Virus record (IMG/VR): IMGVR_UViG_3300032030_000014
Location: 67,919-131,918 of that record
Direction: 5' to 3' (one strand)
Length of the DNA stretch: 64,000 bases
From: a virus
The position numbers and the translations under genes were made by a program. The notes below the pieces were generated by a model that ran no database searches, had not been told where the DNA came from, and saw only the letters and a program-made list of their open reading frames with translations. Within the stretch, counting starts at the first letter, position 1. Each line of letters begins with the position of its first letter. Of this stretch, positions 21,991 to 22,416 are shown one piece after another.

Positions 21991-22416
21991 ATGATGGAAA
22001 TAACTGCTAATGCAGCTCAAATAGTAGCTGTAAATTAGGCTGTCCTTTTCACAGAAACCGCAGTTCCAGGTAACTGTTCTATGATTCACAGAGAAGGAAG
22101 CGGATTAGTTGGCTTGCGCGGACTTCCAAATGGTTAGTTTCGTGCAAGATTCCTCGTTGAATTCGGTGCAAATATCGCGGTACCTACTGATGAAACAGTA
22201 GGTCCCGTGAGTCTTGCCATCGCAATCAACGGAGAGCCTGTTGTCACTTCAAGTATGATTTCAACGCCAGCCGCAGTCGATTAGTATAATAACGTTAGTG
22301 CAAGCATTTACATTGATGTACCTATTGGATGCTGCAGTTAGGTTAGTATAGAAAATACTAGCACTATCCCTGTTAGCGTTCAGAATGCTAATTTAATTAT
22401 TGAGAGGGTGGCGTAA
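21991..22416 (+). CDS. BclA C-terminal-domain-like (C1q/TNF-like beta-sandwich) protein, ~141 aa, five TAGs
   Basis: AAGGAGG ribosome-binding site. The C-terminus ...ASIYIDVPIGCCSQVSIENTSTIPVSVQNANLIIERVA matches the characteristic ending of the Bacillus exosporium BclA C-terminal domain (...SLALGTSASIIIEKVA). No collagen-like repeats. Confidence 0.5.

What the first reader, a model, noticed from the sequence alone, without database searches (positions are those of the whole stretch)
21991..22416. Stand-alone BclA C-terminal-domain-like protein in a phage
The C-terminal 30 residues (...ASIYIDVPIGCCSQVSIENTSTIPVSVQNANLIIERVA) closely mirror the end of B. anthracis BclA (...ALGTSASIIIEKVA). This is a trimeric TNF/C1q-like receptor-binding fold, here without the collagen-like stalk. 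In phages such folds usually cap fibres. Encoding it as a separate 141-aa protein next to Gly-rich proteins is unusual.
Basis: partly seen in the sequence, partly recalled or inferred. Interest (0 to 1): 0.55.

Follow-up and report, generated by a model that had tools for sequence, protein, structure and literature searches.

The report
Stand-alone BclA-like phage jelly-roll protein
A small late gene of a stop-codon-recoded gut phage encodes a free-standing copy of the TNF/C1q-like 'head' domain known from the anthrax spore-hair protein BclA; it is common rather than rare, is always paired with a membrane-anchored coiled-coil protein, and sits in a widespread phage gene module whose function nobody has described.

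Summary

The protein is not unusual. It belongs to PHROG 20016 (unknown function), with over 8000 90%-identity clusters, nearly all stand-alone, in phages of gut Clostridia.

The new finding is the context. In 40 of 42 related loci the gene directly follows a 268-aa protein (A). A has a Gly-rich hydrophobic anchor, two ~80-residue helices, a CCC motif and a Pro-rich tail. Both genes lie in a conserved module with three or four further unknown proteins and a peptidase. A also occurs in crAss-like and archaeal viruses, followed by other small beta-rich proteins.

Best reading (inferred): a trimeric, exchangeable binding head for A, made late. Function is untested.

The parts
21991..22416 (+). 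Gene B, the finding. 141 codons (140 from the ATG at 21994), with four in-frame TAG = Gln. Stand-alone BclA_C/TNF/C1q-type jelly roll; member of PHROG 20016.
21168..21974 (+). Gene A, the conserved partner. 268 aa; the ORF is open from 21150, but the family starts at MFN and a GGAGG site precedes 21168. Features in order: conserved N-terminus, Gly-rich flanks around the hydrophobic WWIILLFLFAF, two long helices (72-152, 161-235), a CCC motif, and a Pro-rich tail RPxxEPAYLVANPYTG. PHROG 16490.
20496..20894 (+). First gene of the module ('g139'), 132 aa. Gln/Tyr/Pro-rich N-terminus followed by a small conserved domain (GLKGRPVSGLEEVRAA.DFDG...IYTKQ). PHROG 21718. Present in 38 of 46 related loci.
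20914..21153 (+). Small 79-aa Gln-rich helical protein between g139 and A. This family or a second ~74-aa family occupies the same position in 40 loci.
22416..23099 (+). Gene C, 227 aa. Helical ends with a Tyr/Gly/Ser/Asn/Pro-rich disordered middle. Its start overlaps the stop codon of B (TAATG). A shorter protein of the same architecture (~148 aa, PHROG 28802) replaces it in the small phages.
23092..23403 (+). Gene D, 103 aa. HExxH protein (CHEITH), putative small metallopeptidase. Pfam DUF6782 scores 27.1 bits against a cutoff of 27; PHROG 1233.
23405..23440 (.). Bidirectional terminator-like hairpin. It closes the g139-to-D transcription unit and the converging tail-fibre gene.
19917..20312 (-). 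Holin-like gene (PHROG 13712 'holin', E 2.5e-27), divergent from the module here. In relatives L013, L017, L019 and L020 it lies directly upstream on the same strand.

Best explanation
What it is (shown). The gene encodes a free-standing beta-sandwich of the BclA-C / C1q / TNF jelly-roll class. It is a member of a very large phage-only family (PHROG 20016) found in phages of gut and rumen Clostridia.

How it probably works (inferred).
- Like every characterised member of this fold class, it most likely forms a compact homotrimer.
- It most likely works as one subunit of a two-polypeptide 'stalk plus head' complex with the protein encoded just upstream (A). A supplies a hydrophobic, Gly-rich membrane anchor and about 11 nm of helical hairpin or coiled coil, with a Cys cluster and a conserved Pro-rich tail. 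B supplies the globular trimeric binding unit.
- B is the exchangeable part. Related phages keep A and the rest of the module but put other small beta-rich proteins in B's position. That is the pattern expected of a host-specific recognition element.
- In this phage the complex is made late. B has the highest share of Gln encoded by recoded TAG in the window, and the operon lies between a holin-like gene and the tail-fibre genes.
- My preferred placement is at the cytoplasmic membrane or envelope of the infected cell around lysis, for example to bind or mask envelope structures, or to help egress. I prefer this to a core virion part.

The binding target and the biological role are unknown.
For: Fold.
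- AlphaFold2 gives pLDDT 97.7 and pTM 0.90.
- Foldseek against PDB ranks F-BclA, BclA, and ExsFA/BxpB first.
- Relatives hit Pfam BclA_C, one of them above the cutoff.

Family size and phage origin.

Partnership with A.
- A lies immediately upstream in 40 loci, with gaps of 8-33 nt or about 100-200 nt.
- This holds in the cultured Butyrivibrio phage Ceridwen.
- A, g139 and a small protein are present in 41, 38 and 40 of 46 loci respectively.

Architecture of A: a single hydrophobic stretch, helices 72-152 and 161-235, and the conserved CCC motif and PxPxPAYxVxNP tail.

Exchangeable slot: C. perfringens phages, Dulem virus 36 and bajarodcaudo virus 2 carry an unrelated Cys-rich beta protein after A. 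crAss-like cr116_1 and Bacteroides phage C3_41T2LP carry yet other proteins there.

Late expression.
- 4 of B's 6 Gln codons are TAG. The share is 0 in DNA polymerase, primase, the RecD-like helicase and the methylase, and 0.45-0.65 in most of the large structural genes.
- Recoded stop codons are reported to be over-represented in structural and lysis genes (PMC10879173).

Link to lysis genes: the holin-like gene is adjacent here and in relatives. The module follows the endolysin region in Ceridwen and Dulem virus 33, and lies about 1.2 kb downstream of the holin and L,D-carboxypeptidase genes in cr116_1.

Operon structure: no terminator-like hairpin on the + strand between 20470 and 23405.
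Against: - No direct evidence exists for trimerisation, for an A-B contact, or for any location.
- B has no signal peptide. If the long domain of A faces outward, B could reach it only after the membrane is breached.
- The position of the module varies. It lies between the minor-capsid and major-capsid genes in Dulem virus 35 and just upstream of the major capsid gene in bajarodcaudo virus 2. It lies directly after the receptor-binding protein gene in Dulem virus 36, and in the early region in C. perfringens phages. Some of these positions would suit a virion part.
- The model of A is low-confidence (pLDDT 57).
- A occurs in phages of Gram-positive bacteria, Bacteroidota and archaea. This argues against any role tied to one kind of envelope.
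Confidence: 0.4

Rival explanations
1. Accessory virion fibre or decoration. A forms a coiled-coil stalk on the particle and the B trimer is its detachable receptor- or glycan-binding knob. Known parallels are the Sf6 tail-needle knob, PRD1 P5 and cyanophage tail-fibre tips.
For: - B has no signal peptide and has the TAG usage of the structural genes.
- The module lies inside or next to the head module in Dulem virus 35 and bajarodcaudo virus 2, and directly after the receptor-binding protein gene in Dulem virus 36.
- Here it converges on a 1907-aa fibre gene.
- Annotators labelled crAss-like A homologues 'spike protein' or 'viral fiber'.
Against: - A carries a conserved membrane-type hydrophobic segment, which is unusual for fibres.
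- The module often lies outside the structural genes: after the lysis genes next to an integrase, or in the early region.
- It travels with a peptidase and disordered Tyr/Gly/Arg-rich proteins, which are not typical fibre accessories.
- No proteomic data exist.
Confidence: 0.25
2. ExsFA/BxpB-like anchoring platform. The B trimer is not a distal head but a base. Its inter-subunit clefts clamp a Pro-rich peptide, namely the conserved PxPxPAYxVxNP tail of A. In spores, BxpB/ExsF clamp the leader peptides of BclA and F-Anchor in this way, giving a very stable joint.
For: - BxpB trimers bind BclA residues 20-38, and ExsF binds a Pro-rich F-Anchor peptide in clefts at the trimer interface (PMC10470788; PMC12357932).
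- The tail of A is its most conserved non-helical element. It is kept even in crAss-like homologues.
Against: - The tail of A is conserved whichever protein occupies B's slot, so it may not be the B-binding element.
- The NCBIfam scan, which should include the exosporium-leader model TIGR03720 (named in PMC12357932), found nothing in ten A tails at E up to 10. The A protein itself also had no such hit.
- The docking prediction could not be run.
Confidence: 0.15
3. Spore-surface mimic or lysogenic conversion. The phage supplies an exosporium-type protein that is built into the host's spores or cell surface.
For: - The closest solved structures are all spore-surface proteins.
- The module proteins are rich in Cys, Gly and Tyr, as spore-coat proteins are.
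- In temperate relatives the module lies next to the integrase, a typical position for accessory genes that a prophage expresses in its host.
Against: - In this phage, B cannot be translated without the phage's own TAG suppression.
- The one cultured host, Butyrivibrio fibrisolvens, is not known to form spores (my own knowledge). Ceridwen was seen only in the lytic cycle.
- A homologues occur in phages of Bacteroides and of archaea, which do not sporulate.
Confidence: 0.05

Closest known systems
C-terminal head domain of BclA / F-BclA (Pfam BclA_C PF18573; PDB 1WCK, 2R6Q, 9H38)
   Different: Only 16-18% identity, and the target itself misses the Pfam model. It has no collagen-like stalk, no exosporium leader and no sporulation context. 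It is phage-encoded and carries a conserved Cys-Cys pair (52-53 of 63 family members) that BclA lacks.
ExsFA / BxpB, stand-alone exosporium basal-layer proteins (PDB 7R1M, 8D02, 9H3D)
   Different: No detectable sequence similarity (12-14% in structural alignment). B lacks the disordered Cys-bearing N-terminal segment of BxpB. Its neighbour is a coiled-coil membrane protein, not a collagen-like protein. Peptide clamping is untested.
TNF/C1q-like receptor-binding heads of phage fibres (cyanophage A-1(L)/A4 tail fibre 8KE9/9K09, Sf6 tail-needle knob 3RWN, PRD1 P5 1YQ5, TM4 gp23 9N6A)
   Different: In those proteins the head is the C-terminal domain of the fibre polypeptide and is encoded in the tail or vertex module. 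Here it is a separate gene in a mobile accessory module.
Eukaryotic TNF-family ligands (for example EDA, 4-1BBL): type II membrane stalk plus a trimeric TNF-homology domain
   Different: Here the anchor-and-stalk and the head are two polypeptides, and there is no sequence relationship. This is an analogy only.

Membership tests
PHROG 20016 (phage protein family, unknown function) | Full-length match to the family profile | tested here: met
   E 1.5e-52, residues 1-141 on profile positions 1-141 of 141.
Pfam BclA_C (PF18573) | Score at or above the gathering cutoff (38 bits) | tested here: not met
   The target has no hit at E up to 1. Relatives do hit: P0317 40.9 bits (above the cutoff), P0286 31.6, P0383 29.8, P0326 24.0. 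In all, 7 of 63 members hit. So the protein is a homologue of the clan through intermediates, not a direct Pfam member.
Pfam BclA_C (PF18573) | TNF/C1q-like jelly-roll fold | tested here: met
Pfam BclA_C (PF18573) | Homotrimer | not testable with these tools
BclA-type collagen-like spore glycoproteins | Collagen-like G-X-Y stalk N-terminal to the head, plus an exosporium leader | tested here: not met
   The jelly roll starts at residue 2. There is no (G-X-Y) run of 5 or more in any frame of the 64-kb window.
ExsFA/BxpB stand-alone exosporium proteins | Free-standing single domain of this fold | tested here: met
ExsFA/BxpB stand-alone exosporium proteins | Detectable sequence homology | tested here: not met
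   No PDB sequence hit with the protein or with the family profile. Identity is 12-14% in structural alignments.
ExsFA/BxpB stand-alone exosporium proteins | Clamps a Pro-rich leader peptide of a partner filament protein | tested here: inconclusive
   The partner A has a conserved Pro-rich tail. The NCBIfam scan, which should include the exosporium-leader model TIGR03720, found nothing in ten tails. Complex prediction was not possible.
Phage fibre receptor-binding heads of TNF-like fold | C-terminal domain of a fibre polypeptide, encoded in the tail or vertex module | tested here: not met
   It is a separate gene. Almost all of the 150 listed representatives (of 673 matching clusters at 50% identity) are 130-160 aa or shorter fragments. 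The position of the module varies between phages.

The most novel reading that the evidence does not exclude
B and A belong to a mobile late-gene module that has not been recognised before and that phages of very different hosts share: Gram-positive Clostridia, Bacteroidota (crAss-like phages) and methanogenic archaea.

In this module a universal protein, A, is paired with interchangeable, host-specific small beta-sandwich proteins. A has a membrane-inserting Gly-rich hydrophobic peptide, a long helical hairpin, a Cys cluster and a Pro-rich tail, so it resembles a spanin or the fusion subunit of a class I viral fusion protein. The BclA-like trimer found here is one of the interchangeable partners. 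The module also carries disordered Tyr/Gly/Arg-rich proteins and a small peptidase.

Such a module could be a new general machine acting at the cell membrane or envelope, in egress, entry or exclusion.
Probability: 0.15. Interest if true: 0.8.

Novelty: new variant of a known kind. Interest (0 to 1): 0.5.

Why it matters
The fold assignment turns one of the larger 'unknown function' families of gut-phage proteins into something testable. That family has more than 8000 clusters at 90% identity and 673 at 50%. The prediction is a very stable trimeric binding module of the BclA/C1q type.

The context matters more. B is locked to a membrane-anchored coiled-coil protein and to three or four further uncharacterised proteins. 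The module moves between phage genomes, and its core protein A reaches crAss-like phages and archaeal viruses. If the module acts at the envelope late in infection, or forms an accessory fibre, it would be a widespread and unstudied component of how gut phages leave, enter or recognise cells. The exchangeable slot would then be a marker of host specificity.

One cultured phage carries both genes (Butyrivibrio phage Ceridwen). Another cultured phage carries the A module (Bacteroides phage C3_41T2LP). Experiments are therefore feasible.

Tried and rejected
- Direct searches with the protein found nothing related to BclA: Pfam, NCBIfam and PDB sequences. The family profile against PDB sequences also found nothing. 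hhalign of the family against the single BclA head sequence aligned in a sensible register but was not significant (probability 2%).
- The first genome-contig scan, with the 63-sequence alignment, failed for lack of a conserved stretch. It worked with 8 closer sequences.
- The afdb50 fold library was unavailable.
- PADLOC gave no hit for any of five module proteins (B, A, C, D, g139), so this is not a known defence system.
- I built a linked 3xB + 3xA-tail paired alignment to test trimer formation and tail docking by AlphaFold2.
- The exosporium-leader idea for the tail of A got no support: the NCBIfam scan, which should include TIGR03720, found nothing.
- The alternative slot proteins have no Pfam hit. 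hhalign of the family against the C. perfringens phage CPD1 slot protein gave no match, and a local hmmsearch with the B family profile found no significant match to any of the five. I therefore do not claim they share B's fold.
- The upstream putative Cys-peptidase family of the small phages has no PDB sequence hit.
- Seven literature searches gave the structural papers on BxpB and F-ENA, the Ceridwen genome paper and papers on stop-codon recoding. They found no paper on this phage family or module.
- I considered and rejected a spanin role, because the hosts include bacteria without an outer membrane and archaea. I also rejected a sporulation-specific role, for the same reason plus the need for TAG suppression.

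Full report
THE SEQUENCE

Window 21991-22416 (+) starts with ATGATG behind a strong ribosome-binding site (AAGGAGG) and ends in TAA. Under the standard code it is cut by four TAGs, and no ORF is listed there.

The window as a whole is TAG-recoded. Allowing TAG to be read raises the summed length of ORFs of at least 100 aa from 13,888 to 25,350 aa. It yields ORFs of 2810, 2653 and 1907 aa with 70, 47 and 22 in-frame TAGs. No gene ends in TAG. With TAG = Gln the product is 141 aa. An identical 140-aa protein (P0001, starting at the second ATG) is on record on 17 contigs of up to 188.6 kb. At three of the four TAG sites, Gln or Glu/Asp/Gln is the commonest residue in homologues. The gene is real.

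IS IT BclA-LIKE?

Negative results first. The protein has no Pfam, NCBIfam or PDB sequence hit. A 63-sequence family profile finds no PDB sequence. hhalign against the BclA head is not significant; I recalled that sequence from memory and verified it as identical to PDB 2R6Q.

Two independent lines settle the question.
- Sequence, through intermediates. 7 of 63 diverse family members hit Pfam BclA_C. P0317 (phmmer E 2.8e-22, 49% identity to the target) scores 40.9 bits against a cutoff of 38, over profile positions 10-128 of 128.

The fold claim is therefore supported. There is no collagen-like stalk. The jelly roll begins at residue 2, and the window has no G-X-Y run of five or more in any frame.

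HOW COMMON IS IT?

The protein is a full-length member of PHROG 20016, 'unknown function' (E 1.5e-52). Two searches of the 5.8-billion-protein collection returned 4625 and at least 8000 clusters at 90% identity. The exhaustive search found 673 clusters at 50% identity. Almost all of the 150 listed are 130-160 aa or shorter fragments.

Hits lie on phage-sized contigs (about 35-45 kb or 100-175 kb) binned mostly with Clostridia: Lachnospiraceae, Oscillospiraceae, Acutalibacteraceae, Ruminococcus and Eubacterium. Hits also occur in 15 deposited phage records. Only one of those is cultured: Butyrivibrio phage Ceridwen. The viral structure library (BFVD) holds stand-alone 130-145-aa gut-phage proteins of the same fold, and two are already named 'BclA protein'. 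So the stand-alone arrangement is frequent, not unusual. No paper on it was found.

CONTEXT

The gene directly follows a 268-aa protein, A (21168-21974; PHROG 16490). This holds in 40 related loci, with gaps of 8-33 nt or about 100-200 nt. It also holds in Ceridwen, where the pair is QHJ73768/QHJ73769.

The A family has over 6000 clusters. Its conserved features, in order, are:
- a conserved N-terminus, MFN..GYSLSDIAAATG;
- Gly-rich segments flanking the only hydrophobic stretch, WWIILLFLFAF;
- two long predicted helices, 72-152 and 161-235 (the model is low-confidence, pLDDT 57);
- a CCC motif near the turn between the helices;
- the motif TRDIIDNQNANTR.ILDFL;
- a conserved tail, P.P.PAY.V.NP, followed by a Gly/Cys/Tyr-rich end.

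Clustering all neighbours over 46 loci shows a larger module. Loci with each element are given in brackets:
- a putative Cys-peptidase of about 127 aa, PHROG 3754 (22);
- g139, PHROG 21718 (38);
- a small Gln-rich protein, from one of two families, placed between g139 and A (40);
- A (41);
- B (46);
- then either a ~148-aa protein with helical ends and an Arg/Gly/Tyr/Ser-rich middle, PHROG 28802 (27), or the longer analogue C plus the HExxH protein D (17 and 16).

In the window the module is g139 - 79 aa - A - B - C - D, at 20496-23403. No + strand terminator-like hairpin lies between 20470 and the hairpin at 23405-23440 that closes the unit. Every PHROG involved is 'unknown function'. PADLOC has no match.

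THE SLOT AFTER A IS EXCHANGEABLE

C. perfringens phages (CPD1, XP41-N3 and others), Dulem virus 36 and bajarodcaudo virus 2 keep g139, the small protein, A and a C-like protein. After A, however, they carry an unrelated family of 125-134 aa with a Cys-rich N-terminus.

A homologues with the same CCC motif and the same tail also occur elsewhere:
- in many crAss-like phages, where they are annotated 'spike protein/glycoprotein' or 'outer capsid protein/viral fiber';
- in Bacteroides phage C3_41T2LP;
- in Methanomassiliicoccales viruses.

In the two of these I inspected (cr116_1 and C3_41T2LP), A is followed by still other small beta-rich proteins, and HExxH proteins lie nearby. I could not show that these alternative proteins share B's fold.

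POSITION AND TIMING

The module sits in different places in different phages:
- after the endolysin region in Ceridwen, and between the endolysin and the integrase in Dulem virus 33;
- between the minor-capsid and major-capsid genes in Dulem virus 35, and just upstream of the major capsid gene in bajarodcaudo virus 2;
- directly after the receptor-binding protein gene in Dulem virus 36;
- in the early region in C. perfringens phages;
- about 1.2 kb downstream of the holin and L,D-carboxypeptidase genes in cr116_1;
- in the window and its large relatives, next to a holin-like gene (PHROG 13712) and converging on the tail-fibre genes.

In this genome, 4 of B's 6 Gln codons are TAG. That is the highest share in the window. 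It matches most of the large structural genes (0.45-0.65). The DNA polymerase, primase, RecD-like helicase and methylase have none. Recoded stop codons are reported to be enriched in structural and lysis genes, which need the phage suppressor tRNA (PMC10879173). B is therefore a late gene here.

INTERPRETATION

Shown:
- the fold and the family;
- the tight A-B synteny;
- the wider module;
- the exchangeable slot;
- the late-type codon usage.

Inferred:
- B is a homotrimer, as are all characterised proteins of this fold. BxpB and the BclA and F-BclA heads are trimers (PMC10470788, PMC12357932).
- B is the globular, host-specific binding unit of a complex with the anchored coiled-coil protein A.

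I place this complex at the membrane or envelope of the infected cell around lysis. The reasons are the membrane-type anchor of A, the recurrent adjacency to holin and endolysin genes, the accessory-gene-like mobility of the module, and the occurrence of A in hosts whose only shared surface is the cytoplasmic membrane. Confidence is 0.4 for the whole statement, above 0.9 for the fold, and about 0.6 for an A-B complex.

Rivals:
- an accessory virion fibre with a detachable knob (0.25);
- an ExsFA/BxpB-like platform that clamps the Pro-rich tail of A (0.15; this concerns how the two proteins join and is compatible with either location);
- a spore-surface mimic (0.05).

The docking test could not be run. 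The NCBIfam scan, which should include the exosporium-leader model TIGR03720, found nothing in the tails of A.

VERDICT

The finding is correct as a fold assignment, and the protein is ordinary in frequency. The novelty lies in the undescribed conserved module around it. I rate it a new variant of a known kind, with moderate interest.

Noticed in passing
whole window; per-gene table: TAG is read as Gln throughout, and no gene ends in TAG. The share of Gln codons that are TAG is graded. It is 0 in DNA polymerase III alpha (9867-13859), primase, the RecD-like helicase and the methylase. It is 0.1-0.4 in DnaB, RecJ-like, NrdD/NrdG, dUTPase and RuvC, and 0.45-0.67 in most of the large structural genes and in B. 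No suppressor tRNA, and no tRNA at all, lies in these 64 kb.
   Followed up: partly
L051 3632-4528 (crAss-like cr116_1); L052 3653-4570 (Bacteroides phage C3_41T2LP); Methanomassiliicoccales viruses vir215 and vir335: The partner protein A has clear homologues in crAss-like phages, in a cultured Bacteroides phage and in archaeal viruses. They share the Gly-rich hydrophobic segment, the CCC motif and the RP.P.PAY.V.NP...GCGC tail. Annotators labelled them 'spike protein/glycoprotein' or 'outer capsid protein/viral fiber', apparently from coiled-coil similarity.
   Followed up: partly
window 21168-21230 (N-terminus of A); alignment: The conserved N-terminus of A, YSLSDIAAATG[GN], resembles the double-glycine leader consensus of exported bacteriocins (LSxxELxxIxGG, from my own knowledge). 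In the small phages a putative papain-like Cys-peptidase precedes the module (PHROG 3754; invariant Asp-Cys, His and Asp). No profile hit supports either idea.
   Followed up: partly
proteins P0248, P0280, P0298, P0313, P0341: Several metagenomic protein clusters are in-frame fusions of the front of one module gene (peptidase, g139 or A) to the back half of B. These are either deletion variants of the module or assembly chimeras.
   Followed up: no
window 23444-29167 (-), compared with L002-L004: The 1907-aa tail-fibre-like gene that converges on the module is highly variable between otherwise 96-100% identical relatives. There it is replaced by one gene of 1636 aa, or by two genes of 1286+459 or 1500+740 aa. 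Only the ends are conserved, and it contains internally repeated segments.
   Followed up: no
L003 6106-6765, compared with window 18762-18759 junction: One close relative carries a 219-aa gene with a weak GIY-YIG match inserted between the dUTPase and RuvC genes. The window lacks it, which suggests a homing-endonuclease presence/absence polymorphism.
   Followed up: no
window 6306-7094 (+): A 262-aa protein with a lipoprotein-type signal (…LMMAFIGC…) and a Tyr/Cys-rich C-terminal domain sits among the replication genes. It was not analysed.
   Followed up: no
window 19249-19288, 19878-19903, 23405-23440: Three strong bidirectional terminator-like hairpins mark the boundaries between converging or adjacent transcription units around the module. 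Twelve terminator-like sites were found in 5 kb, against 2.9 expected.
   Followed up: no
L045 offset -2400 and 8 other loci (family 19): In nine of the small phages a 72-aa protein lies just upstream of the module. By eye it looks like a helix-turn-helix / sigma-factor region 4 protein (…YEKLAEHYEIEPRQVGRIVTKRMQNLISHI), so it may be a dedicated late-transcription regulator.
   Followed up: no
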